A stretch of 64,000 nucleotides of DNA from Thermoanaerobaculia bacterium. Its GTDB lineage: Bacteria; Acidobacteriota; Thermoanaerobaculia; Multivoradales; JAGPDF01. Shown piece after piece: positions 1 through 11,070 of this stretch. Numbering within the stretch: position 1 is the stretch's first letter; the number at the start of each line of letters is the position of its first letter. The notes below the pieces were generated by a model. It was not told the origin of the DNA. It saw only the letters and a list, made by a program, of their open reading frames with translations, and made no database searches. The stretch covers positions 12,173-76,172 of the forward strand of contig JANNGS010000057.1 in NCBI GenBank assembly GCA_031403995.1, given 5' to 3'. Position numbers and translations under genes: made by a program.

Positions 1-254
1 GCCCGCGATCAGCGGCACCAACGCCCGAAACACTCCATGCCCTTGCTTCACCGGGTCCTTCTCTGCTTTCCTTCGCATCGTCGGCTCCTTTTCCCCGAAG
101 GGAACGGTTGCTTGACACAGTCATTCTCTGACTGGACAAGGGGCCGCCGCTACTTCACGTCAAATTCAACAGAGTTCGGGACATTGCCTGCCTCACCGGC
201 GTCTGTATCTTCCAAAACCCCGGCCGCAACGACCTGCTCGGGGAAGGAGACCGC

Positions 255-1100
255 TTGCTCTTGCAGCCAGCGCAGAGCGTCAGTGGCTTGAGCTGGGTAG
301 GGGAGAGCGGCGATTTCGTGCAAGTGTTCGAGGGCAGGTATGCGGTCGAAGAGACCTGGGGAATCTGGGGCGAGCTCTACGAATCAGACAGCTCGTTCGT
401 GAGTGGGCCGGTTCGTATCAGCGACCCCGCGGTCCGCGAGGCCCGTCACCCCGCAGTGTCTCGAGACGCGCAAGGCGAGTTTCTCGTGGTTTGGGAGGCC
501 GATGGAAATCAGGACGGCGTTCCCGAGATTCGTGGCCGCAGGCTGGATCGCAATGGCGTACCCGTTGGCCCCGAGTTCGCGGTGGGCCCGGGGGAAGCGG
601 GAGAGAGCCAACGTCCGAGCGTGGCGCTCGACGCCGGAGGCAACGCCATTGTCGCCTGGGAGAGCCTCGATGCGACCACGGGGCTCAAGCAGGTTTGGAT
701 TCAAAGGCTGGACCGTGCCAACCGACGCGATGGTGATCCGCAGAGGGTGGGCGAGCCGCAGGACGCTTGGCCCGGGCCGAGAGTCGCCGGCGATCCCGCC
801 GGAAACGCCCTGCTCGTGTGGATGGAGGCGGACGGGGCCGCTGGAAATCAGCTTGTCTCCTTGTTCATCGGAGAGTCGGGGCGATTGAGAAATCAAGTCG
901 TCGCTTCGAGCCTGGCGACCGAGTTTCTCGCGCTTTCAGCCGTCGTCGCGACGAAGGCCGGTCGTTTCCAGGTGGAGTGGGAAGCGCTCGACCAGGGAAG
1001 CCCGACGCGTCGAAGCGCGCGCGACTACTCCACGCAGGGAGTCGCGATCGGGGGCGAACGTGCCGCTCCTTCAACTCTTGCCGGCGGCCCGGCTCAATGA
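255..1100 (+). CDS. Repeat protein paralogous to the downstream gene. It has four copies of a 40-50 aa unit of the form G-x-(F/I)-x-V-x-W-E...DG...R-R-x-D-x-x-G. No signal peptide is visible. The start is uncertain: TTG at 255, and in-frame sequence stays open back to 132.
   Basis: The ORF shares the repeat motif GxxxVVWE/GNAIVAWE/GNALLVWME with ORF 1097..3079. Its stop TGA overlaps the ATG of the next gene (ATGA). Composition is protein-like. Confidence 0.5.
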   Translation: MLLQPAQSVSGLSWVGESGDFVQVFEGRYAVEETWGIWGELYESDSSFVSGPVRISDPAVREARHPAVSRDAQGEFLVVWEADGNQDGVPEIRGRRLDRNGVPVGPEFAVGPGEAGESQRPSVALDAGGNAIVAWESLDATTGLKQVWIQRLDRANRRDGDPQRVGEPQDAWPGPRVAGDPAGNALLVWMEADGAAGNQLVSLFIGESGRLRNQVVASSLATEFLALSAVVATKAGRFQVEWEALDQGSPTRRSARDYSTQGVAIGGERAAPSTLAGGPAQ

Positions 1101-3079
1101 GAGCTTGGAATTGCAGCGTTCTCCTCACGGTTCTCATAGTGCCCTCGGTCTGGGCGCAAGCCCCCGTGGGCGATGAGTTTCGTGTCCACGAGAATATCGA
1201 CCGGGCCCAGAGAAACTCAGCGTCCTGCATGGATGCTACGGGCAGAGTCTTCTTCGTATGGGAGCAGGATTTTCAGATCTGGGGAAGGAACTTTGGCTCT
1301 TCGGGAGTTCCTACCTCACCTTCGTCGGAACTGACTGTACCGTCTTCTCCTCCATATGGGCACCGCCCACGCTGCGAATCGAACGCCTGGGGGGAGGGTG
1401 CGGCGGTTTGGGCGGGGGGGCCGCCAGCGCTCGTCGCCTTGAGGCCGATTGAGCTCGGAGTCGGAGCGCTTCCGGAGACTTTCTCGCTCTGGTCCGATCT
1501 CGCGTTTTCACCCGGCAATGCCTCCGTCAGCGTTCGTGCTGACGGGACTCGGGCGGTCAGCTGGGTGACAAGCGGTTCAACCTTGAGTCTCACAGATGTT
1601 TGGGTGCGAACGATCGGTCTCGATGGCAGCCTCGGTCCAGGGCCGATCCGGGCACAGCAGGACGGCGGTTACAACTCGAGCTATCCCACCGAGACGGACG
1701 TGGCTTGGCTCGATTCCGGGCGTCTGGTGGTGGTGTGGAACGCGCCGGGCGCCGACCTCGATCAGGATGGGGTACTGGCGCGGATCTTCGACGCAAATGG
1801 AAATCCGGAGGGACCGGCCTTTCTGGTCAACACCTACGAGATCGACCTCCAGGTCGATCCCGAGGTCGATTCCGACTCGTACGGCAACTTCACCGTCGTC
1901 TGGGACAGCTTCTGGCAGGATGGCAGTGGCGAGGGGATCTTCGCCCAGCGCTTCGACCATCTGGGCCAGAAGTTGGGGAACGAGATGCAGGTGAGCTCCA
2001 ACGCATACTCGGGTCAATACGAGCCGTCGATCTCTATCGATTGGGCCGGGAATTCGGTGGTCTCCTTCTCGAGCATCCAAGAAGAAAACCATCTCCGCGA
2101 AGACACATTCGTGAAGGCGTATAGGGCCGACGGAAGCACGCTTGGAGAGCAGTTGATGGTCAACCAGCAGATCATCTACGAGCAGGACGTGCCGAGCGTC
2201 TCGCTTTCGGACTCCGGGACCTTCGTCGTCTCTTGGCATAGCCATCAGGTCAACGATCTGCCGCTGGGGGCGGACCCCGACGTCATGGAGCGTCGCTTCA
2301 CGCTCCCGTGTTTGCCAGGACCGACGACGCTCTGCCTACTGGGCGATCGCTTTCTAGTGCGGGCGCTCTACGAAACTGCCGCTGGAGGTCGCGGCTTCGG
2401 CGAGGCGATCCCGCTCACATCGGGATCCGGAGGCTTCTGGTTCTTCTGGCCCGACAACTTCGAGCTGCTGGTGAAGGTCGTCGATGGCTGCAACTTCAAC
2501 AGGAGATTCTGGCTCTTCGCTGCCGGGCTCACCGACGTCAAGGTCGATCTCATTGTTACCGACACCTGGACCGGAACCGTCCAAACCTGGAGGAGCACTC
2601 TCGGTGAACCGTTCGCGCCGGTGCAACAGATCGAGCGCTTCGCGACCTGCGATGCGCCACGGCCAGTGAGCTTTGCGGCGGGCGCGACGAGCATGGCAAG
2701 ACCGCTTGCCACCTCGATGGAAACCGATCTCTGCTCTCCCGACACGACCCATCTCTGCCTCAACGACGGGCGATTCCGCGTTGGCGCCAACTGGCGCGCC
2801 TTCGACGGTCGACAGGGCATCGCGACGGCCGCCCCCCTCGCCGGCGACAGTGGTCTCTTCTGGTTCTTCGCACCCGAGATACTGGAGTTGGCGATCAAGG
2901 TAATTGATGGCTGCCAGTTGAACGATAGATTCTGGGTCTACACTGCTGGACTGACAAACGTCGAGGTTGACCTGACGGTGGAAGACTTGTTGCGGAATCG
3001 GTCATGGTCCTTCCACAACCCGGCGGGGCAGGCTTTCCCTCCCATTCTCGATTCTTCCGCCCTGGACACCTGCCCCTAA
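1097..3079 (+). CDS. Secreted repeat protein. It has a signal peptide, six copies of the same 45-50 aa repeat, and then two tandem copies of a roughly 110 aa Cys-bounded domain (motif FWFFxP..EL..KV.DGC..N.RFW...AGLT.V.VDL.V.D).
   Basis: The Met at 1097 is followed by MRAWNCSVLLTVLIVPSVWAQAP, an n-h-c signal peptide; the ORF track starts further upstream at 767 in the same frame. The repeats and the C-terminal duplication were read directly from the translation. Confidence 0.7.
   Translation: MRAWNCSVLLTVLIVPSVWAQAPVGDEFRVHENIDRAQRNSASCMDATGRVFFVWEQDFQIWGRNFGSSGVPTSPSSELTVPSSPPYGHRPRCESNAWGEGAAVWAGGPPALVALRPIELGVGALPETFSLWSDLAFSPGNASVSVRADGTRAVSWVTSGSTLSLTDVWVRTIGLDGSLGPGPIRAQQDGGYNSSYPTETDVAWLDSGRLVVVWNAPGADLDQDGVLARIFDANGNPEGPAFLVNTYEIDLQVDPEVDSDSYGNFTVVWDSFWQDGSGEGIFAQRFDHLGQKLGNEMQVSSNAYSGQYEPSISIDWAGNSVVSFSSIQEENHLREDTFVKAYRADGSTLGEQLMVNQQIIYEQDVPSVSLSDSGTFVVSWHSHQVNDLPLGADPDVMERRFTLPCLPGPTTLCLLGDRFLVRALYETAAGGRGFGEAIPLTSGSGGFWFFWPDNFELLVKVVDGCNFNRRFWLFAAGLTDVKVDLIVTDTWTGTVQTWRSTLGEPFAPVQQIERFATCDAPRPVSFAAGATSMARPLATSMETDLCSPDTTHLCLNDGRFRVGANWRAFDGRQGIATAAPLAGDSGLFWFFAPEILELAIKVIDGCQLNDRFWVYTAGLTNVEVDLTVEDLLRNRSWSFHNPAGQAFPPILDSSALDTCP
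2290..3079 (+). repeat. Internal tandem duplication encoding two roughly 110-aa domains (TLCLLGDRF...RFATC and HLCLNDGRF...LDTC) at the C-terminus of the 1097..3079 protein.
   Basis: The two segments align motif-for-motif: FWFF, ELxxKVxDGC, RFWxxxAGLTxVxVDL. Confidence 0.6.
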
Positions 3080-3185
3080 GTTCGCGTTGTCTGGGGAAGC
3101 ACCCGCACGCAGGATCCGAGTCCGCCCACCCAGGCTAGCTGGTTTCGCGCTGTCGCACGGATGCTAGGCTCGTCCGGGCCTCGCC
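3080..3185 (+). promoter_or_regulatory. 5' leader/promoter region of the Ni/Co ECF-transporter operon. It may hold a metal- or B12-responsive element, but no riboswitch consensus was recognised by eye.
   Basis: A 106-nt non-coding gap lies directly upstream of cbiM. cbiM/nikM operons are usually controlled by B12 riboswitches or NikR; this element is inferred, not observed. Confidence 0.2.
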
Positions 3186-4286
3186 ATGCACATTCCGGAC
3201 GGTTATCTCAGTCCCTCGACCTGCGCGGCGCTCTATGCCGCGGCGCTGCCGTTCTGGACGGTGGCGCTGCGCCGGGTGCGGACGCTGCTGGCAACGCGCT
3301 TCGTGCCTTTGATCTCGCTCTTCGCGGCTTTCTCCTTCGTCATCATGATGTTCAATCTGCCGCTGCCCGGTGGAACGACGGGGCATGCGGTGGGGATCGC
3401 GATGGCGGCGATCGTGCTCGGGCCGTGGGGGGCGACTATCGCGATCTCGGTGGCGCTCGCGATCCAGGCGTTGCTCTTCGGCGACGGCGGAATCCTCACC
3501 CTGGGCGCCAACTGCTTCAACATCGCCATCGCCGGCTCGTGGGTCGCGGCGGCGGTCTACCGGTTGGCCGCGGCAGGGGCACCCCTGCTCGCGCCGCGGC
3601 GCGTCTTCGCCGCTGGGCTGGCCGGATACTGTGCGATCAACGCCGCGGCATTCCTGACCGCGCTCGAGCTGGGTGTGCAGCCGATGCTCTTTCACGACGC
3701 GACCGGCGCGGCGCTCTACGCTCCCTACCCGTTGAAGGTCGCGGTGCCGGCGATGATGCTCGGGCATCTGACCTTCGCCGGACTGGCAGAGGCTCTGCTC
3801 ACCGCCGGTGTCGTGCGCTACCTGCAGCAGAGCGAGCGTGAGCTCCTGGGCGGGGGCGCCCGAACCTCCGTCGGCATGTCGCCATTGGGTGGCATCGCGC
3901 CTGCCGGGGGCGGCTCCACGCGCCGGCTCTGGGCGTGGCTCGGCCTGCTCCTGGTGCTCTCGCCGCTCGGTCTGCTCGCCGCCGGCAGCGCCTGGGCGGA
4001 GTGGAGCCCGGAAGATCTCGCTGACCCGGTTGCACGAGCGGCGATCGCGGCGGTGAGTGGCGGAGCGGAGCTGCCCGCGGTAGCTCCGAGCGGTCTCGGC
4101 CGCCTAGCGACTCTTTGGACGGCGCCGGTGCCGGACTACGCTCCGGCTTTCCTGCGCAGCGCAGCGATGGGCTATCTAATCTCGGCCCTCGTCGGGGTCG
4201 GGATCATCGTGCTCACGGTCGTCGGACTGCAACTCCTCGTCGACCGGACGCGACGCGGCGGGCCGCAAGCCGCGCCCTCCCTCTGA
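3186..4286 (+). CDS. cbiM: ECF-transporter substrate-capture component CbiM/NikM (Ni2+/Co2+) with a fused C-terminal CbiN/NikN-like two-TM extension.
   Basis: The N-terminus MHIPDGYLS is the hallmark metal-binding start of CbiM/NikM. The body is polytopic and hydrophobic. An extra roughly 120 aa with two TM segments resembles the small N component. Confidence 0.8.
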   Translation: MHIPDGYLSPSTCAALYAAALPFWTVALRRVRTLLATRFVPLISLFAAFSFVIMMFNLPLPGGTTGHAVGIAMAAIVLGPWGATIAISVALAIQALLFGDGGILTLGANCFNIAIAGSWVAAAVYRLAAAGAPLLAPRRVFAAGLAGYCAINAAAFLTALELGVQPMLFHDATGAALYAPYPLKVAVPAMMLGHLTFAGLAEALLTAGVVRYLQQSERELLGGGARTSVGMSPLGGIAPAGGGSTRRLWAWLGLLLVLSPLGLLAAGSAWAEWSPEDLADPVARAAIAAVSGGAELPAVAPSGLGRLATLWTAPVPDYAPAFLRSAAMGYLISALVGVGIIVLTVVGLQLLVDRTRRGGPQAAPSL

Positions 4287-5167
4287 TGTCTCGCGAGCGA
4301 CCGAAGGCGACAGCGGCGGCGATCGCCTCGCCGGGTTTTCGCCTGGCCGGCAGGTCGCCGGTGGAACGAACGCTGGAGGAGCTGTTGCGGGTCGCCGAGC
4401 GCTCCCTGCACGCCGAAGAGACGGCGAGGCGCGGTGGACTTCTGCAGAAGCTCGACGCGCGCGCCAAGTGGATCGGCCTCGGCGGTCTCGTCCTGGCGGC
4501 GGGACTGGCGCGCAGCTTCGCGGTGCTCGGAGCGCTGTTCAGCCTCGCGCTGCTGCTCGCCCTGCTCTCTCGCCTGCGCTTGCGCGAGCTCGCACTGCGG
4601 GCCTGGTTGCCGGCGCTGCTCTTCACGGGGTTGGTCGCCGGCCCGGCGCTCTTTCTCACCCCGGGGCCGGCACTCGCCGGGTTCGCGGGTTTGCCCGAGG
4701 CGCTGGGGGTAAGTACCACCGGGGCGCGCGCTGTCGGCTTCCTCCTGCTGCGCGTCGAGGCGATCACCTCGTTCACGCTGCTCCTCGTGTTGACCACTCC
4801 GTGGGCGCGCCTGCTCGCGGCGCTGCGCGGCCTGCGCGTGCCGGCGACGGTGGTGGTCATCCTCGGCATGACCTATCGCTTCCTCTTTCTGCTTCTTTCG
4901 AGCACCCACGATCTCTTCCTCGCCCGGCGCAGCCGGTCGGTCGGCCGCCTCGCGCCGCGCGCGTCACGGCAGCTCTTCGCGCGTACGACCGGCGTTTTGC
5001 TCTCGCGAACCGTCGCCACCAGCCAGCAGGTCTACCTCGCGATGATCTCGCGCGGTTCCTCCGGCGACGTGCGGCTGCTCGATCCGCTGGCGATGCAGGG
5101 GCGGGATTGGGGCGCCGTCGCGACGAGTCTCGGGCTCGCTGCCGTGGCTATCTGGGTGGGTCGATGA
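4286..5167 (+). CDS. cbiQ: ECF transporter transmembrane (T) component CbiQ.
   Basis: The segment VLTTPWARLLAALRGLRVP...ILGMTYRFLF is typical of CbiQ/EcfT. Its ATG overlaps the cbiM stop (TGATG). The track ORF 4115..5167 is in the same frame. Confidence 0.75.
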   Translation: MSRERPKATAAAIASPGFRLAGRSPVERTLEELLRVAERSLHAEETARRGGLLQKLDARAKWIGLGGLVLAAGLARSFAVLGALFSLALLLALLSRLRLRELALRAWLPALLFTGLVAGPALFLTPGPALAGFAGLPEALGVSTTGARAVGFLLLRVEAITSFTLLLVLTTPWARLLAALRGLRVPATVVVILGMTYRFLFLLLSSTHDLFLARRSRSVGRLAPRASRQLFARTTGVLLSRTVATSQQVYLAMISRGSSGDVRLLDPLAMQGRDWGAVATSLGLAAVAIWVGR

Positions 5168-5985
5168 GCTCTGCACAGGTACCGCTCTACGAGCTGCGCG
5201 AGGTGAGCTATCGCTACGAGGAGATCGTCGCGATCGACGCCTGCTCGCTGACCATCGAGCGCGGCTCGCGTGTCGCGCTGCTCGGCGCCAACGGTTCAGG
5301 CAAGTCGACGCTGCTCATGCTGCTCGATGCCCTGCAGCCGCCGAGCGCGGGGTCGATCCACTTCGACGGCCGCGAGCTCTCGCCCGCGGCGCTGCTCGAC
5401 GAACGCGTGAACCACGACTTCCGGCGCCGTGTCGGTTTCGTCTTCCAGAACCCGGAGGTGCAGCTCTTCAATCCGACGGTGCGCGACGAGATTGCCTTCG
5501 CCCCGCTGCAGCTCGGCTGGCCGGCGGAGAAGATCCGCGACGAAGTGGAGCGGATGGTCGACCGGATGCAGCTGCGCCAGGTCGTCGAGCGCCCGACCTT
5601 CCGGCTCTCGATGGGCGAGAAGAAGCGGGTTGCGATCGCCTCTGTACTCATCCTCGACCCGGAGGTGATGCTCCTCGACGAGCCGACCGCCGGCCTCGAC
5701 CCGCGCAGCCAGAGCGGGGTCATCGACCTGCTCGAGGAGTGGCAGGGGAGCGGACGGACGGTAGTGCTGGCGACCCACGACCTCGGCGTGATCGAGGAGG
5801 TCGCCGACCGCTGCCTGGTCTTCCAGGAAGGCCGGCTGGTCGCCGACCACACCCCGAAAGAGACCGTCACCGACCTCGACCTTCTCGCCCGCACCGGCCT
5901 CGTCCACAGCCATCGGCATTCGCACCGCTCGGGTCTGCACCACGCGCATCCTCATCTCCACCGCCACGAGCACGGCGAGTCGTAG
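5164..5985 (+). CDS. cbiO: ECF transporter ATPase CbiO with a His-rich C-terminal tail (HSHRHSHRSGLHHAHPHLHRHEHGES).
   Basis: It has Walker A GANGSGKST, the ABC signature LSMGEKKRVAIA and Walker B LLDEPTAGLD. The ATGA overlap with cbiQ was seen in the sequence. Confidence 0.85.
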   Translation: MSSAQVPLYELREVSYRYEEIVAIDACSLTIERGSRVALLGANGSGKSTLLMLLDALQPPSAGSIHFDGRELSPAALLDERVNHDFRRRVGFVFQNPEVQLFNPTVRDEIAFAPLQLGWPAEKIRDEVERMVDRMQLRQVVERPTFRLSMGEKKRVAIASVLILDPEVMLLDEPTAGLDPRSQSGVIDLLEEWQGSGRTVVLATHDLGVIEEVADRCLVFQEGRLVADHTPKETVTDLDLLARTGLVHSHRHSHRSGLHHAHPHLHRHEHGES

Positions 5986-6008
5986 CCCGACAATAGGCGC
6001 GGCGGCAG

Positions 6009-9000
6009 TCAGCCCAGGCGCTCGAGCTCGGCGGCGAGGACGTCGACGTGTGGTGGCTCGAGCATTGAGAGATGGTCGCCCGGCACCGGCACAATCGCGA
6101 GCTCGCAGCCGGTTCGCCGCATGAACTCCGCATAGAGTCCGCCGGAACGCACGGTGGCGGCTAGAAAGGTCACCCTGCCGTCCCAGGCGCCGGGAAGGTA
6201 GCGCGCCAAGGCGGCTTCGTTGGCTCGCAAGACGCGGGTGAAGTGGCGGTATTCGTTCGCCTTGATCACCTCGTCGCGGCCATCCTTGAAGCGGCGAAGG
6301 CGGCGCCGCAGGCGCCCCAGGAGATCGCCCGCGGAGCGCCGCAGCCGGTCGTGAATCCACGCCCTTGCGGAGAGGGGCTCAGGGCGAACCCCGGGCAGGA
6401 CCTCGGCCAGCTCGGTGTCGAACATAGCGATCCAGGAGATTTCGTTGGGCCTCGCGAGGCGCGCCATCTCGTAGGCCACGACGCCTCCGAACGACATGCC
6501 GGCGATGCGGTAGGGCGGCGGGATCGGATGCGCCCGAACCTCCGCCAGAAGAATCTCCGCGAGCTCCTCGATCGTCTGCGGGATCGGTCGGTGGTCGTCG
6601 AGGCCCGGACTCTGAAGGCCGATGAGGAGGCGCCCGGGTGCAAGGATTCGCGCCAACGCGACCAGGCGGAGCAAGTGCCCACCGAGCCCGTGAACGCAGA
6701 AGATAACCGACGCCGCCCGCGCCGCCGGCGACGTCGGCGGGACGATCGTCACCAGGTTCGAGGCTTCTCCGAGACCAGACTCCGGCGCCATCTTGGAGCG
6801 CAATTCGGCCACGAGACCCGCGAGCGTCGGCGAGCGCAGGAGCTCGGCCACGCGGAGTGGAGCTCCGAACGCGGCTTCGATCCCGACGAGCAGCGAGACC
6901 GCGGCGAGAGAATCGCCGCCCGAAGCGAAGAAATCGGCGTCGCGAGAGATCGGCGTCACGTCGCCACGGCCGAGGGCGAGCTGCCAGATCTTCGCCAGCC
7001 GCTGTTCCAGAGGATCGCCGACCGACCCGAGCGCTTTCTCCCCGCACGCAGCCTCCGGCTTCGCGGGCGGAGGCGACGAGCTCTCACCCACCAGGCGATC
7101 GAAGTCGACCTTGCCGGCGAGGGTGAGTGGCAGGAAGGCGACGGCGAGGAGCGGGCTTGGGCGCAAGTACGCGGGCAGCCGCCGTTCGCACTCGCCCGCG
7201 ACCGCGGCGAGGTCTGCCCCGGTCGCGAGCACGACCCATCCGCTCAGGCGGAAGCCGCCCGCGGCCAGCGGTGCTGGCGCGACTGCGGCTGCGGAGACGC
7301 CGGCAATCGCGCGCAGCGTCGCCTCGACCTCTCCCGGCTCGACCCGTCGTCCAGCGATCTTGACTTGCCGATCGAGCCGGCCGAGAAACTCCAGCTCGCC
7401 GTCGCCGCGCCGGCGCACCCGGTCGCCGGTGGCATAGAAGCGATCAGAGCCACGACCTTGCTCGTCGCCGCCATCGCCGTCGGCGTTGCCGGAGGGGTCG
7501 AAGCGGGCGAATCGCGCCGCGGTCAGGTCGGGCCGCAGGTGATAGCCCCGCGCCAAGCCGCGGCCGCCGAGCCAGAGCTCCCCGGACTCGCCGGCAGCGA
7601 CTTGCCGGCGTTCGGTATCGAGGACGACGGCCCGCACTCCCTCGACCGGGTGCCCGATCGGCAGGCCGTTTCTCTCTGTGAGGTCGGAGGCGCGACGCGG
7701 CGCGTTCCACCATGTCGCCACGATCGTCGTTTCGGTCGGACCGTAGGTGTTGATGAGGCGCTTGCCGGCGGTGGCCTCGAGCCAGACGCGCGCGGCGCGC
7801 CCGCTCGCCAGCTCGCCGCCGAGAACCAGCAGGCGCAGGCTCGGCGGGAGCTCGAGGCCGTGAGCATCGACTTCCGTCGCGGCCTGCTCCCAGACCGCGG
7901 TCGGCAGGTCGAGGATGGTGACATCGAGCTCGCCGCAGCGCGCCAGGAGCTCGCGTGGCGCCGGCAGTGCAGGCTCGTCGAAGGCTACCAGCGTGGCGCC
8001 GTGGCAGAGCGCTCCGAAGATCTGTTCGAGGGCGAGATCGAACGCCGGCGAGGCAAGCTGAAGAATCCGGTCGCTGGGGGAAATCTCGAACTCGCGGCCC
8101 GCGGCTGCGATGTAGTGGGCGAACGCATGGTGCTCGACCGCGACTCCCTTGGGCGCGCCGGTCGAGCCCGAGGTCGCGGCGACGTAGGCGAGATCCCAAG
8201 GTTGCGCCGCCTGCCGCGGTTCGGCGCCGCTGCTCAAGGGCGAGTGCTCGCAGCCGTCCGCGAGACCGACCGGATGCATCGGAAGGTGCTGCAGAAGCGG
8301 CAGTAATGCAGCGGGGCGGTGCGGTGCGGATTCTCCGACTGCCAGCAGCGGGCGGTTCTCGGCGAGGATCCGAGCCACGCGATCCGGCGAGTCGAGGGCA
8401 TCGAGGACGAGAAAAGCGCCGCCGGCCTCGTGCACGGCGAGCATGGCCGTGACCAGATCGGGAAGGCGCCGGAGGCGCAGCGCCACTAGTCTCCCAGGCC
8501 CGACGCCGCGCCGCGCGAGGGCCGCAGCGAGGCGGCTCGCCCGCTCATTCAATTGCCGATAGCTCCAGCGCTCGTCACCCCACTCGACGGCGAGCGCGTC
8601 CGGCCTCCTTTCGGCGTGGGCCCGAAAGCGCTCGCCCACCGTGGGGATGCGTTCCGCAGGGAGGAGCGTCCCTGGCGTCGGACGACCGGCGACGTGCCTG
8701 CGGAGCCGGCGAGCGAAGCGGTGTGCAAAGTCTGTGAGGGAATCGCTCTCCGGAGGCAAGCGGGTGCGCAACGTCACCTTGCGGAGTCCGGGATCGACGG
8801 CGATCGTGAGGCGTATCGCACCTTCGGCAGGGAGGCCCGGGGGCGTCTCTCCGACGGTCAGCAGGTCGAGTGCCACGGCTGGACCGCATGGAAGACCGGA
8901 TCCGGTGGCGGCCGCCGTCAGCCGACGGCTGCGCAGGGGGAGATCCGTCGGGAACGTGCCGCGTGTCCGCAGGCGCGTGCGCTGTTCAGTCAAGTCGCGC

Positions 9001-10307
9001 GCCACCTCATCGAGCTCGATGCTCTCCCGAAAGGGTACGTGAATCGGCAGGCGCGCCACGAGAAAGCCCTGCCAGCCGTGCGCGGCGATCTCGGCGCGCA
9101 GCTCGGGTTCGCCGAAAGCGACGTCGAACGGTTGGCCGATCTCACCGCCCACCGCGAGGAGTATGGCGGCGACCAGGGTCTCGGTCTCGACTGGAGTATT
9201 CGGCGGCAGATCGAGCTCGATGCTGGCATCGGTAGTCGCCGAGCCGTGGCAAACGGTTTCGAACTCGGGCGGCAGGAGCGGTGCAAGCTCGACGAGCCTG
9301 CTGATCCACTCTGCCTCGTGGCGTTGGCACTCCCGTTCCCGGGCGACGAGGGGCTCGGGGTCGGGAGCGGTCGCGGCGAGGCGTTCGCCGATGGCCGCTC
9401 CGAGGCGGTCGAGGGCTGCCTGCGGAGCGATCGCGACGCCGTCGAGCGCCGTGAGCTGGGCGATGCGCAAGTCCGAGGTAGCTGTCGCGATCTCGAGGCC
9501 ATGGGCTCCGGCGCGCAGGATCGTGCCGGGCGGGGCTCCGCTGCGCGTGCCGAGGATCGTGACCTGCGGCGCCAGGAAGACTCCGCCAGGGACGACGAGC
9601 TTCGGGATGCCCATCGGGTTGTCGGCCGCGCCGAAGTCGAGCCCGCGCACGAAGGCCGATATGCGCTCCGCGGATTCGTTCCACGGCACGACGCAGCCGG
9701 GCGACGGGCGGCGCCAGCCCGGGAAGTAGGTGCGCGCGGCGCGCGTCTGCGGGCGAGAACTGAGCGTGCCGCTCGCCAGCCCGGCGAGGAGCTCTCCGAA
9801 GCTCTCGATCGCTGCCTCGGTGCAGCGCAGGTTGAGCGTCCAGGCGGTCTCGTCGGGAGCGAGCGCGAGTGCGCGTTCGACGAGGAGCTCGCCCATGTCG
9901 AGCTCTGGTGTCATGCGGTGCCAGACGATGCCGTGCCGATGCTCTCCCTGGTCGATCGCCCACGAGGTGGCGTGGAGCCCGGCGTACCGCGGCAGCGGCG
10001 CATCGTGGTAGTTGATCGCCATCCAGCGCGCCAAAGCGAGGAGCGCCGGCGGCAGAAGGCGCAGGTTGTGAACGGAGAGCAGGAGATCGAAGGGCGCGCC
10101 AGCAATTAGGGCTTCGACGTCGCCGTGGGTGAGGGGCGCCTGCGCTGACAGGAAGCAGCAGGCAATCCGGTTCTCGGCTGCCCAGCTGGCGACCCGGCCG
10201 TCACCCGTGACGACTCCGAGCACGGAATGACCGCCTTCGAGGAGCATCTGCCCACAGCGCACCGTCACTGCAGCGTCGCCTACGAGGACAGAAGAGAGGC
10301 GGCGCAT
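6009..10307 (-). CDS. Single-module NRPS-like megasynthase. The domain order is N-terminal methionyl-tRNA-formyltransferase-like domain, a vestigial linker with no HHxxxDG, an adenylation domain, a peptidyl carrier protein, and a thioesterase (F-A-T-TE).
   Basis: The formyltransferase-like N-terminus (HNLRLLPP...NYHDAPLPRYAG...SWAIDQGEHRHGIVWH) is followed by A-domain cores LAYVAATSGSTGAPKGV, NTYGPTET, YATGD and KIAGRRVEPGEVE. The carrier motif is FFASGGDSLAAV. The thioesterase has VHGLGG and the GMSFGG nucleophile elbow. The track ORF runs to 10403, but the Fmt-like domain begins at the Met at 10307. Confidence 0.85.
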   Translation of the reverse strand: MRRLSSVLVGDAAVTVRCGQMLLEGGHSVLGVVTGDGRVASWAAENRIACCFLSAQAPLTHGDVEALIAGAPFDLLLSVHNLRLLPPALLALARWMAINYHDAPLPRYAGLHATSWAIDQGEHRHGIVWHRMTPELDMGELLVERALALAPDETAWTLNLRCTEAAIESFGELLAGLASGTLSSRPQTRAARTYFPGWRRPSPGCVVPWNESAERISAFVRGLDFGAADNPMGIPKLVVPGGVFLAPQVTILGTRSGAPPGTILRAGAHGLEIATATSDLRIAQLTALDGVAIAPQAALDRLGAAIGERLAATAPDPEPLVARERECQRHEAEWISRLVELAPLLPPEFETVCHGSATTDASIELDLPPNTPVETETLVAAILLAVGGEIGQPFDVAFGEPELRAEIAAHGWQGFLVARLPIHVPFRESIELDEVARDLTEQRTRLRTRGTFPTDLPLRSRRLTAAATGSGLPCGPAVALDLLTVGETPPGLPAEGAIRLTIAVDPGLRKVTLRTRLPPESDSLTDFAHRFARRLRRHVAGRPTPGTLLPAERIPTVGERFRAHAERRPDALAVEWGDERWSYRQLNERASRLAAALARRGVGPGRLVALRLRRLPDLVTAMLAVHEAGGAFLVLDALDSPDRVARILAENRPLLAVGESAPHRPAALLPLLQHLPMHPVGLADGCEHSPLSSGAEPRQAAQPWDLAYVAATSGSTGAPKGVAVEHHAFAHYIAAAGREFEISPSDRILQLASPAFDLALEQIFGALCHGATLVAFDEPALPAPRELLARCGELDVTILDLPTAVWEQAATEVDAHGLELPPSLRLLVLGGELASGRAARVWLEATAGKRLINTYGPTETTIVATWWNAPRRASDLTERNGLPIGHPVEGVRAVVLDTERRQVAAGESGELWLGGRGLARGYHLRPDLTAARFARFDPSGNADGDGGDEQGRGSDRFYATGDRVRRRGDGELEFLGRLDRQVKIAGRRVEPGEVEATLRAIAGVSAAAVAPAPLAAGGFRLSGWVVLATGADLAAVAGECERRLPAYLRPSPLLAVAFLPLTLAGKVDFDRLVGESSSPPPAKPEAACGEKALGSVGDPLEQRLAKIWQLALGRGDVTPISRDADFFASGGDSLAAVSLLVGIEAAFGAPLRVAELLRSPTLAGLVAELRSKMAPESGLGEASNLVTIVPPTSPAARAASVIFCVHGLGGHLLRLVALARILAPGRLLIGLQSPGLDDHRPIPQTIEELAEILLAEVRAHPIPPPYRIAGMSFGGVVAYEMARLARPNEISWIAMFDTELAEVLPGVRPEPLSARAWIHDRLRRSAGDLLGRLRRRLRRFKDGRDEVIKANEYRHFTRVLRANEAALARYLPGAWDGRVTFLAATVRSGGLYAEFMRRTGCELAIVPVPGDHLSMLEPPHVDVLAAELERLG

Positions 10308-10401
10308 GGACAGGCCAAGCGTATAGCGAGAGGAGTCGTTGAAACCCCATCGACGGGAGCTGGCTTCGCGCCGGCACGCGAGGGAGTAGACTCCCCGCCG
10401 C

Positions 10402-11070
10402 ATGGGCGGCCGACACCTGTTTCCGCGCTTGCGCTGGTTGGGGCTCGCCTGGCTGGTGGTCTACCTGCCGTCGTATGCGATCGCCTACGGTTTCACCAAC
10501 TTCCTCTTTCTCTGCAACCTCGGCGTGATGCTCACCGCGGCGGCGCTGCTGGGCGAGAGCCGCCTGGTGCTCTCGAGCCAGGCGGTGGCGGCGCCGGTGA
10601 TCGGCCTCGCCTGGGCAACCGATGCCGGCTGGCGGGTGGTGACCGGGGCGCACCTGTTCGGCGGCACCGAGTACATGTGGGATCCGCAGTACCCGCTGTT
10701 CACCCGGCTGCTCTCGCTCTACCACCTCGCCTGGCCGGTGATCGTCGTCGTGCTCGTGCGGCGGGTCGGTTACGACCGTCGCGGCTGGGCGCTCCAGGCC
10801 ACCATCGCCGCCGCCGCGCTGGTCGTCTGCCGCCTGTTCACGGCGCCGGCGGAGAACATCAACTTCGCCTTCGTCGATCCGGTCTTCGGCCGGGCGTTCA
10901 CGCCGCCGGCGCTGCACCTCGCGATCGTCTTCGTCGCCCTCGCGGGCGTCGCCTACGGCGCGACCCACCTCGCGCTGCTGCGGTTCGCGGCGCGCCGGAG
11001 CGACGGCGGAACCGCAACGGCTCCGGACGCCGCCAGCGACGCCCTCCTCGACCGGGCTACCGCAGGCTGA
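10402..11070 (+). CDS. Hypothetical polytopic membrane protein, divergent from the NRPS-like gene.
   Basis: It has at least five hydrophobic helices and protein-like composition. The opposite-strand ORF 10201..10968 is Arg/Asp-rich junk. Confidence 0.55.
   Translation: MGGRHLFPRLRWLGLAWLVVYLPSYAIAYGFTNFLFLCNLGVMLTAAALLGESRLVLSSQAVAAPVIGLAWATDAGWRVVTGAHLFGGTEYMWDPQYPLFTRLLSLYHLAWPVIVVVLVRRVGYDRRGWALQATIAAAALVVCRLFTAPAENINFAFVDPVFGRAFTPPALHLAIVFVALAGVAYGATHLALLRFAARRSDGGTATAPDAASDALLDRATAG

What the first reader, a model, noticed from the sequence alone, without database searches (positions are those of the whole stretch)
255..3079. Two translationally coupled paralogous secreted repeat proteins with an unrecognised 45-50 aa repeat and a duplicated Cys-bounded C-terminal domain
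The repeat GxFxVVW...DG...I.xRRxDxxGxPxGxxFxV recurs four times in the first gene and six times in the second. I cannot place it in a named family (it is not Kelch, BNR, PD40 or YD).

The second protein ends in two tandem roughly 110-aa modules, each framed by Cys residues (FWFFxP..ELxxKVxDGCxxNxRFW..AGLTxVxVDL). The first gene lacks a signal peptide and may be a decaying copy. The pair sits directly upstream of the Ni/Co ECF transporter.
Basis: seen in the sequence. Interest (0 to 1): 0.5.

Follow-up and report, generated by a model that had tools for sequence, protein, structure and literature searches.

The report
IS-truncated glycosidase remnant plus secreted propeller protein
The two "paralogous repeat proteins" are one intact secreted β-propeller protein, ending in a pair of unnamed disulfide-framed domains, and the leftover tail of a neighbouring glycosidase gene that a mobile element cut off. 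Both repeat types belong to large protein-domain families, mostly seen in Acidobacteriota, that no database names.

Summary
The sequence features are real. Gene 1 (255-1100) has five repeats of about 50 aa. Gene 2 (true start ATG 1097, to 3079) has a signal peptide, a 7-bladed β-propeller and two C-terminal four-Cys modules (42% identical, E=8e-31). Pfam, NCBIfam and PDB sequence searches find nothing for either.

Gene 1 is not an independent paralogue. It is 57-64% identical to the last ~300 aa of ~930-aa GH140-like (PF13204) glycosidases. In all six related contexts read gene by gene, such a glycosidase lies directly upstream of the gene 2 orthologue, usually with overlapping stop and start. 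In the window that homology starts abruptly at nt ~183. An IS256/Mutator-family transposase gene (minus strand, start codon at nt 78) sits immediately upstream. Gene 1 is therefore a recent 3' remnant.

Function is inferred only: a non-catalytic partner of the glycosidase, carrying a surface-retention or binding tag. The Ni/Co transporter adjacency is not conserved.

The parts
1..78 (-). First 26 codons of an IS256/Mutator-family transposase gene. The start codon is at nt 78 and the gene continues to the left of the window.
   Evidence: Logan contig L089 is 100% identical to window 1-1918 and extends 685 nt to the left. Its minus-strand ORF (254 aa, cut by the contig end) hits PF00872 Transposase_mut at E=4.9e-17. 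tblastn places residues 1-26 at window 78..1.
79..182 (.). Presumed terminal part of the IS element, up to the junction with the truncated gene. The boundary lies at about nt 175-190.
   Evidence: This stretch has no similarity in any frame to the related GH140-like genes. Similarity starts at nt 183-195 against L087, L002 and L001. The inverted repeat and the target duplication could not be checked, because only one IS end is in hand.
183..1100 (+). 3' remnant of a GH140-like (PF13204) glycosidase gene. It comprises the last few residues of the Collagen_bind_2-like domain plus a C-terminal domain of five blade repeats. The callable ORF runs from TTG 255 to TGA 1098-1100 (281 aa).
   Evidence: The remnant is 64/63/57% identical, essentially without gaps, to the last ~300 aa of the upstream genes in L087, L002 and L001. 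Those genes are full length at about 930 aa. There is an in-frame TGA at 129-131. The five blade repeats lie at residues 17-56, 65-110, 117-165, 174-197 and 229-268, i.e. nt 303-1058.
244..257 (+). Shine-Dalgarno-like AAGGAG (244-249) lying 5 nt upstream of the TTG at 255. This is a possible secondary start for the remnant ORF.
   Evidence: Read directly from the sequence. The motif lies inside ancestral coding sequence: the window has GEGD where the relatives have GAGD, GSGD or GSSD. A gene caller used this start, since P0262 is in the protein collection.
1097..3079 (+). Gene 2, an intact 660-aa secreted protein.
   Evidence: It has 193 homologues, and full-length relatives are 36-81% identical. 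The AF2 model has pLDDT 88 and pTM 0.88.
1097..1162 (+). Sec-type signal peptide, MRAWNCSVLLTVLIVPSVWAQA|P.
   Evidence: Judged by inspection: a positive n-region, a hydrophobic core and an A-Q-A cleavage motif. The A-Q-x-P motif is conserved at this position in the family alignment. pLDDT is below 50 for residues 1-17. No dedicated predictor was run.
1163..2308 (+). Seven-bladed β-propeller (residues 23-404). The N-terminal strand (22-31) closes blade 7. The blades span about residues 35-82, 88-134, 135-186, 196-246, 249-300, 303-357 and 360-404.
2309..2650 (+). Cys-framed β-sandwich module A (residues 405-518; Cys 405, 413, 465, 518).
   Evidence: Module HMM i-E 3e-53. pLDDT is about 90-96.
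2732..3076 (+). Cys-framed β-sandwich module B (residues 546-660; Cys 546, 554, 606, 659). The protein ends ...C-P-stop.

Best explanation
Window 183-3079 is a damaged copy of a two-gene cassette that is conserved in Thermoanaerobaculia and Holophagales (Acidobacteriota).

In intact copies, gene A encodes a secreted protein of about 930 aa. In the L002 copy that was scanned, this comprises DUF5060, a GH140-like PF13204 catalytic barrel, Collagen_bind_2 and a C-terminal five-repeat propeller domain. Gene B, equivalent to gene 2 here, follows with an overlapping stop and start. It encodes a signal peptide, a 7-bladed CylK-like β-propeller and a tandem pair of disulfide-framed β-sandwich modules.

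In this genome an IS256-family element abuts the cassette. The event is recent, because the remnant has no frameshifts or stops and is no more diverged than the intact orthologues.

The following steps are inferred, not shown. Gene 2 is still exported by Sec. Its propeller is non-catalytic and binds either the glycan substrate or the propeller of the partner enzyme. Its tandem module retains the protein at the cell surface by non-covalent binding to an envelope polymer, in the manner of SLH domains. In the intact cassette it would thus present or tether the untagged glycosidase. With the enzyme half gone, gene 2 here is an orphan. Its translation may now depend on the remnant ORF, which has acquired an AAGGAG-N5-TTG start, through ATGA termination-reinitiation coupling.
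For: Shown.

Orthology of gene 1 to the C-terminus of PF13204 proteins is established.

A full-length GH140-like gene lies directly upstream of the gene 2 orthologue in L001, L002, L082 (twice), L083/84, L085/86 and L087, while the other flanking genes are all different. The same holds in L003-L006 and L008-L010.

The stop and start overlap or nearly abut in most copies.

The transposase gene lies immediately to the left and the homology break is at nt ~183.

There is no excess divergence: gene 1 is 56.5% identical to the outgroup, against 53.8% and 52.9% for the intact orthologues.

Gene 2 has a high-confidence model with 7 blades and two β-sandwiches.

Support for the inferred roles.

The nearly invariant propeller residues are almost all Gly, Trp, Val and Arg in strands and turns, which gives no obvious catalytic set.

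The module family has 10,426 clusters. Of 141 representatives, 138 have two copies and 3 have four, and 119 end within 3 aa of the C-terminus.

The cargo domains are highly diverse: proteases, LRR, Calx-beta, PKD, fn3, BACON, GH113 and sortilin/BNR.

Genome hits are almost all Acidobacteriota, with several loci per genome.

Distant propeller homologues carry SLH, a T9SS sorting domain or RTX repeats instead of the module.

The four Cys are conserved (CCCC in 207 of 264 modules), with some paired losses, which is consistent with extracytoplasmic disulfides.

The GH140-like partner has no tandem module of its own.
Against: No experiment or direct computational test bears on function.

In 16 of 141 representatives the tandem pair is N-terminal. 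This fits a binding domain but shows it is not a strict C-terminal tag.

More distant full-length family members lack a GH140-like neighbour (L007, L013, L016, L057, L060). The partnership is therefore not universal.

The strong CylK similarity leaves an enzymatic propeller open.

The IS inverted repeat, the target duplication and the fate of the 5' part of gene A were not seen. No protein from a 126,292-nt contig matched the GH140 domain. A simple insertion cannot therefore be told apart from an IS-mediated deletion or rearrangement.

The signal peptide was judged by eye only.
Confidence: 0.55

Rival explanations
1. Two translationally coupled paralogous secreted repeat proteins exist, and gene 1 is a decaying duplicate of gene 2 that lost its signal peptide.
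For: The two share the blade repeat (26% identity, E=1.8e-16). They overlap by ATGA. Gene 1 lacks a signal peptide.
Against: Gene 1 is 57-64% identical and collinear with the C-terminus of GH140-like proteins in the syntenic position. Its homology begins upstream of any possible start codon (nt 183 against TTG 255). A transposase gene occupies the place where its 5' part should be. It never had the Cys modules.
Confidence: 0.03
2. The tandem Cys-framed modules are a carbohydrate-binding unit, a new CBM-like family, that targets the protein to a substrate polysaccharide rather than to the cell's own surface.
Confidence: 0.25
3. The tandem module is a C-terminal sorting signal. A dedicated, undescribed secretion or attachment machinery of Thermoanaerobaculia recognises it, as a functional analogue of the T9SS C-terminal domain.
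For: 84% of representatives end within 3 aa of the C-terminus and 77 of 141 end in Cys-Pro. There are many paralogues per genome with diverse cargo. Bacteroidota homologues of the propeller carry a T9SS type A sorting domain in the equivalent position.
Against: 11% of representatives have the pair N-terminal, directly after a signal peptide. It is always duplicated and about 270 aa long, far larger than known sorting tags. No machinery was identified. There is no hit to PF18962 or to NCBIfam sorting-domain models.
Confidence: 0.12
4. The gene 2 propeller is itself an enzyme related to CylK or virginiamycin B lyase, not a binding domain.
Against: The CylK active site lies at the interface with its N-terminal Ca2+ β-roll domain, which supplies Arg105 (PMC8916777). 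Gene 2 has no such domain and no HemolysinCabind hit. No HMMER similarity to 7RON was found with three different profiles or with RTX-bearing relatives. No conserved acid/base set is evident among the nearly invariant columns.
Confidence: 0.08
5. The pair is functionally tied to the downstream Ni/Co ECF transporter, for example as a metal-scavenging surface protein.
For: The transporter lies 107 nt downstream on the same strand. Some distant propeller homologues carry CopC domains.
Against: None of six related loci has CbiMNQO nearby. GC content jumps from about 0.63 to 0.70 between the two. No conserved regulatory RNA was found.
Confidence: 0.02

Closest known systems
CylK (PDB 7RON), the cyanobacterial Friedel-Crafts alkylating enzyme, C-terminal seven-bladed β-propeller
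   Different: Identity is only 12% and no HMMER-detectable sequence similarity exists. Gene 2 lacks the N-terminal Ca2+-binding β-roll that forms half of the CylK active site. Gene 2 has a Sec signal peptide and C-terminal Cys modules. Its context is a glycosidase cassette, not a natural-product cluster.
GH140 / PF13204 (DUF4038, apiosidase-like) glycoside hydrolases with a PF12904 C-terminal domain
   Same: Gene 1 is orthologous to the C-terminal part of proteins carrying these domains. The conserved neighbour of gene 2 orthologues is such an enzyme.
   Different: The catalytic barrel is absent from the window. The Acidobacteriota proteins carry an extra five-repeat propeller domain at their C-terminus; whether characterised GH140 enzymes lack one was not checked here. 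Substrate specificity is unknown.
SLH (S-layer homology) domains and other cell-surface retention modules
   Same: The grammar is the same: tandem copies at either terminus (mostly the C-terminus here), attached to very diverse secreted cargo, with many paralogues per genome. Distant propeller homologues carry SLH where gene 2 carries the Cys modules.
   Different: The fold is unrelated, a β-sandwich with four Cys. There is no sequence similarity, and binding to an envelope polymer has not been shown.
T9SS C-terminal sorting domains (PF18962 / TIGR04183)
   Same: Both are C-terminal β-sandwiches on diverse secreted cargo within one phylum. Bacteroidota propeller homologues have one.
   Different: The T9SS domain is a single copy of about 80-100 aa, strictly C-terminal and without conserved Cys. 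The module here is duplicated, is sometimes N-terminal, and does not match the Pfam or NCBIfam models.
IS256 family insertion sequences (Mutator-type transposase, PF00872)
   Same: The transposase hit is E=4.9e-17, and the gene starts about 100 nt inside the presumed element end.
   Different: Only one end is available. The inverted repeats and the 8-9 bp target duplication were not verified.

Membership tests
β-propeller fold (7-bladed) | Seven four-stranded antiparallel blades arranged around an axis, with closure by an N-terminal strand. | tested here: met
Named propeller repeat families (Kelch, BNR/Asp-box, PD40, WD40, NHL, FG-GAP, YD, LVIVD) | A match to the family HMM. | tested here: not met
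   hmmscan against Pfam-A and NCBIfam at E<=10 gives no hit for gene 2 and only a chance Secretin_N hit (E 0.19) for gene 1.
CylK/BrtB alkyl-halide-activating enzymes | [quoted passage not shown] | tested here: not met
   Gene 2 goes from the signal peptide straight into the propeller. There is no HemolysinCabind hit.
CylK/BrtB alkyl-halide-activating enzymes | Detectable sequence homology. The paper used >24% identity over both domains. | tested here: not met
CylK/BrtB alkyl-halide-activating enzymes | The catalytic residues Arg105, Tyr473 and Asp440. | not testable with these tools
   No residue-level structural alignment or CylK sequence was available. Arg105 lies in the domain that gene 2 lacks.
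GH140-like glycoside hydrolase (PF13204) | The presence of the apiosidase-like catalytic barrel. | tested here: not met
   There is no PF13204 hit in gene 1. Homology to the relatives starts only at residue ~630 of 934, after the catalytic domain at residues 190-552.
GH140-like glycoside hydrolase (PF13204) | Orthology of the surviving part to the C-terminus of PF13204 proteins in the syntenic position. | tested here: met
   Identity is 57-64% over about 300 aa with L001, L002 and L087, and the position upstream of the gene 2 orthologue is the same.
IS256 family insertion sequence | A Mutator-type DDE transposase (PF00872). | tested here: met
   E=4.9e-17 over profile positions 28-241 of 379. 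The protein is cut by the end of the Logan contig.
IS256 family insertion sequence | Terminal inverted repeats and an 8-9 bp target-site duplication. | not testable with these tools
   Only one end (window ~79-182) is available. The source contig is not in the searchable collections.
T9SS C-terminal sorting domain | A match to PF18962/TIGR04183, in a single copy at the extreme C-terminus. | tested here: not met
   There is no HMM hit. The module is duplicated, and it is N-terminal in 16 of 141 representatives.
Known carbohydrate-binding modules | Sequence or close structural similarity to a CBM family. | tested here: inconclusive
Sec-dependent secreted protein | An N-terminal signal peptide with n-, h- and c-regions and an AXA cleavage site. 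| tested here: met
   MRAWNCSVLLTVLIVPSVWAQA|P was judged by inspection. Homologues align with equivalent hydrophobic N-termini and an AQxP motif. No SignalP-type predictor was available.
CbiMNQO Ni/Co ECF transporter operon membership | Conserved co-location with cbiM, cbiQ and cbiO. | tested here: not met
   The transporter genes are confirmed, but they are absent next to the cassette in L001, L002, L082, L083, L085 and L087.

The most novel reading that the evidence does not exclude
The tandem four-Cys β-sandwich pair is the attachment tag of a surface-display system specific to Thermoanaerobaculia and related Acidobacteriota, functionally equivalent to SLH or T9SS-CTD tagging, and so defines much of the group's exoproteome. 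Gene 2-type proteins would be tagged adaptors that dock an untagged GH140-like enzyme through propeller-propeller pairing, a cohesin-dockerin-like logic built from CylK-type propellers.
Probability: 0.18. Interest if true: 0.75.

Novelty: new variant of a known kind. Interest (0 to 1): 0.45.

Why it matters
Two domain families emerge that the domain libraries searched here (Pfam-A, NCBIfam) and source annotations do not name.

The first is a blade repeat of about 50 aa that builds CylK-like propellers in secreted proteins of many phyla.

The second is a four-Cys β-sandwich module of about 115 aa that almost always occurs as a pair. It has 10,426 50%-identity clusters, mostly in Thermoanaerobaculia, and sits on proteases, glycosidases, adhesin-like repeats and more.

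Naming and characterising the module would annotate thousands of "hypothetical" extracellular proteins in a widespread but almost uncultured soil, sediment and wastewater lineage. It could also reveal how these bacteria display their degradative enzymes.

The conserved GH140-like plus propeller cassette gives a concrete pair of proteins to test.

The particular locus in this window matters less. It is a recently IS-damaged copy. It also shows how a truncated remnant can be mistaken for a paralogous gene.

Tried and rejected
1. I tried to extend gene 1 leftwards through a frameshift into frame 1, which is open from nt 1 to 291. Matches that looked plausible by eye (PEG, RRYF) got no support from tblastn at word size 2 or from tblastx against three relatives. 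The frame is explained instead by the antisense transposase gene.

2. I tried to fetch the source contig. P0001 is not on record. The contig is not in genome contigs, where the best hit is 44%. An exact 41-mer search of metagenome contigs found nothing. Only a 2.6-kb Logan contig was recovered.

3. I looked for the missing 5' part of the glycosidase gene among proteins from the 126,292-nt contig. None was found.

4. I searched for a riboswitch or other RNA between the cassette and cbiM. There was no Rfam hit at E<=1 in 1-7000.

5. The promoter and terminator scan was uninformative, with one site of each kind, close to what the shuffled sequences give.

6. I looked for other copies of the IS end or of the transposase in the window. 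There are none.

7. I looked for other blade or module genes in the 64-kb window. There are none.

8. I tried to link the propeller to CylK by sequence, using profiles A1 and A4 and the RTX-bearing relatives. There were no hits.

9. A fold search against AFDB was not possible, because the library was unavailable.

10. Literature searches for a described Thermoanaerobaculia or Acidobacteriota C-terminal or sorting domain found nothing relevant.

11. The idea that gene 1 is decaying was rejected. It is not more diverged from the outgroup than the intact orthologues.
Full report
**1. What is in the sequence**

The region holds two plus-strand ORFs. The first runs 255..1100 (TTG start, 281 aa). 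The second is listed as 767..3079, but its homologues and its signal peptide place the real start at ATG 1097. That gives 660 aa and an ATGA overlap with the stop codon of the first ORF. In the frame of gene 1 a TGA sits at 129-131, so it cannot be extended to the left in frame. Neither protein matches any Pfam-A or NCBIfam model at E<=10, nor any PDB sequence.

**2. The repeats and modules are real**

I built an HMM from blades 4-6 of 37 aligned gene 2 homologues. It detects five repeats in gene 1 (i-E 2e-4 to 2e-15). In gene 2 it detects six repeats plus the N-terminal closing strand, with a best i-E of 3.5e-23. The consensus is PSDQAEPDVAADAAGRFVVVWSSDEQDGSGEGIFARAFDADGTPLGPEFQVNQ.

The AlphaFold2 model of gene 2 (pLDDT 88, pTM 0.88) shows seven four-stranded blades over residues 23-404, closed by strand 22-29. 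Two β-sandwich domains follow.

The two C-terminal modules (405-518 and 546-659) are 42% identical, E=8e-31. Gene 1 and gene 2 are homologous over the blades only (26% identity, E=1.8e-16).

**3. Gene 1 is a fragment of another gene**

I read gene by gene the contigs that carry six homologues of gene 2: the three closest with a contig on record (P0003 at 81%, P0002 at 78%, P0004 at 63%) and three at about 40%. In each, the gene directly upstream carries a PF13204 apiosidase-like (GH140-like) domain. The loci are L001, L002, L082 (twice, as a tandem duplication), L083/L084, L085/L086 and L087. All other flanking genes differ between loci.

tblastn shows that the upstream gene is full length (about 930 aa) and in one frame in L001, L087, L082 and L083. 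In L085 a single frameshift splits it. A GH140-like hit also lies upstream in L003-L006 and L008-L010. It is absent near more distant family members.

The 934-aa L002 protein consists of DUF5060, the apiosidase-like barrel (residues 190-552), Collagen_bind_2 (588-642) and a tail of about 290 aa. Window gene 1 is 63%, 64% and 57% identical, essentially without gaps, to that tail in L002, L087 and L001.

The similarity begins at window nt 183-195, upstream of the only available start codon. Nothing to the left of that point matches in any frame.

**4. What cut it**

The exact 281-aa product is on record in a Logan assembly. That 2,603-nt contig (L089) is 100% identical to window 1-1918 and extends 685 nt further left. 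The extra DNA encodes a minus-strand protein whose start codon is at window nt 78. It hits PF00872, the Mutator/IS256-type transposase family, at E=4.9e-17.

The roughly 100 nt between the transposase start and the homology break fit the terminal part of such an element. The inverted repeat and target duplication could not be checked, because only one end is available.

A search with the catalytic half of the L002 enzyme found 41 relatives, none from a 126,292-nt contig. I therefore cannot say whether the 5' part lies beyond the IS or was deleted.

The remnant is not degenerating. Against the outgroup L001 it is 56.5% identical, compared with 53.8% and 52.9% for the intact L087 and L002 orthologues. 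It has no stops or indels, so the event is recent.

A Shine-Dalgarno-like AAGGAG at 244-249 lies 5 nt before TTG 255. It arose inside former coding sequence, where the window has GEGD and the relatives have GAGD, GSGD or GSSD. Gene 2 has no clear SD of its own. Translation of the remnant could therefore still feed gene 2 by termination-reinitiation. This is an inference.

**5. The propeller**

Foldseek against the PDB gave only generic propellers at about 10% identity.

No sequence link to CylK could be made with the full-length profile, a blade profile, or RTX-bearing distant homologues. Gene 2 also lacks the N-terminal Ca2+ β-roll domain that supplies half of the CylK active site.

I therefore call it a CylK-like propeller by shape, not a member of the CylK enzyme family.

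The nearly invariant columns of the family are almost all Gly, Trp, Val and Arg, which look structural. I take that as weak evidence for a non-catalytic role.

Sequence homologues of the blade region occur in several phyla. They are fused to T9SS sorting domains, SLH domains, RTX repeats, CopC or proteases.

**6. The Cys-framed module**

A profile of 49 module copies finds 10,426 representatives of 50%-identity clusters among 1.84 billion proteins, 5,457 of them at E<=1e-30.

In the 141 best representatives I counted the following:
- 138 have exactly two copies and 3 have four.
- The median linker is 29 aa.
- 119 end within 3 residues of the C-terminus, and 77 end in Cys-Pro.
- 16 have the pair at the N-terminus, directly after a signal peptide.

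The four Cys are conserved (CCCC in 207 of 264 modules). There are some joint losses of the first pair (13) or the second pair (8), which suggests two disulfides. Residues R19, N55, E57, K61, W73, T80 and D90 are essentially invariant.

In 49 long representatives the other domains are highly diverse: Calx-beta, sortilin/BNR, CarboxypepD_reg, LRR, fn3, PKD, BACON, Laminin_G_3, Peptidase_S8, GH113, Kelch and FG-GAP. No Pfam family covers the module itself. Every source name seen is "hypothetical protein" or refers to another domain.

Genome hits number at least 544 and are almost all Thermoanaerobaculia, Holophagales or unclassified Acidobacteriota MAGs. Up to five loci from one genome appear among the best 80.

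**7. How it most likely works**

The cassette structure, the truncation and the folds are shown. The following points are inferred:
- In intact cassettes the two genes are co-translated and both products are exported.
- The gene 2 protein is a non-catalytic partner. Its propeller binds either the glycan or the paralogous propeller on the enzyme.
- The tandem module holds the partner, and through it the untagged enzyme, at the cell surface.

I prefer a surface-retention role for the module for three reasons. It behaves like SLH domains: tandem copies, at either terminus, on many kinds of cargo, in many paralogues, within one lineage. Its cargo is mostly not carbohydrate-active. Distant propeller homologues carry SLH, T9SS or RTX domains in its place.

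In this genome the enzyme half is gone, so gene 2 is probably an orphan.

**8. Context**

CbiM-PDGLE, CbiQ and CbiO are confirmed downstream, but they never accompany the cassette elsewhere. No regulatory RNA lies between them. GC content rises from about 0.63 in the cassette to about 0.70 beyond it. The link to the transporter is coincidental.

**9. Novelty and verdict**

At fold level nothing is new: the parts are a β-propeller and β-sandwiches. At family level, both the blade repeat and, especially, the paired Cys module are large families that none of the libraries searched here names. The conserved pairing with a GH140-like enzyme was not mentioned in the literature I could search.

The locus itself is a recently IS-damaged copy. 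I rate it a new variant of a known kind, with interest 0.45.

Noticed in passing
window 1-78 (-), continuing left of the window; L089 2-763: An IS256/Mutator-family transposase gene (PF00872, E=4.9e-17) abuts the cassette. No second copy of it, or of its end, is present in the 64-kb window.
   Followed up: yes
window 244-257: A perfect AAGGAG lies 5 nt before the TTG start of the remnant ORF. It was created by a Glu codon where the relatives have Ala or Ser. It may keep the remnant translated, and so keep gene 2 coupled to it.
   Followed up: partly
window 1-4000 versus the rest: The cassette has the lowest G+C of the window (0.63-0.65, against about 0.69 on average and 0.70-0.73 just downstream). 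Together with the IS, this hints at a separate history for the segment.
   Followed up: no
window 6009-10403 (-): A single-module NRPS-like gene with an unusual N-terminal formyltransferase domain: Formyl_trans_N, AMP-binding, PP-binding and Thioesterase, 1,464 aa.
   Followed up: partly
window 3186-4286 (+): CbiM is fused to a C-terminal PDGLE domain (PF13190, just below the Pfam cut-off) instead of there being a separate cbiN gene. CbiQ and CbiO follow.
   Followed up: partly
L082 3368-11885: The cassette is tandemly duplicated in one Acidobacteriota MAG: a GH140-like gene (877 aa), a partner (684 aa), a GH140-like gene called as only 302 aa, and a second partner (684 aa).
   Followed up: partly
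L085 2856-6013; L001 7278-9977; L087 2897-5698; L002 ~9542-10001: Gene calls in the related contigs are often wrong. The GH140-like gene is split by a frameshift in L085 and called from internal starts in L001 and L087. The gene 2 orthologues P0002 and P0003 are called without their signal peptides.
   Followed up: yes
representative proteins P0127, P0135, P0144, P0189, P0213, P0235, P0239 and others: In about 11% of module-bearing proteins the tandem Cys-module pair sits at the N-terminus, right after the signal peptide, with 140-750 further residues behind it.
   Followed up: partly
proteins P0045, P0054, P0055, P0062, P0074, P0092, P0119: The same blade repeat occurs outside Acidobacteriota, fused to SLH, T9SS sorting, RTX, CopC and even a flagellin N-terminal domain (Magnetovibrio blakemorei). 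None of these has a Pfam annotation over the blades.
   Followed up: no
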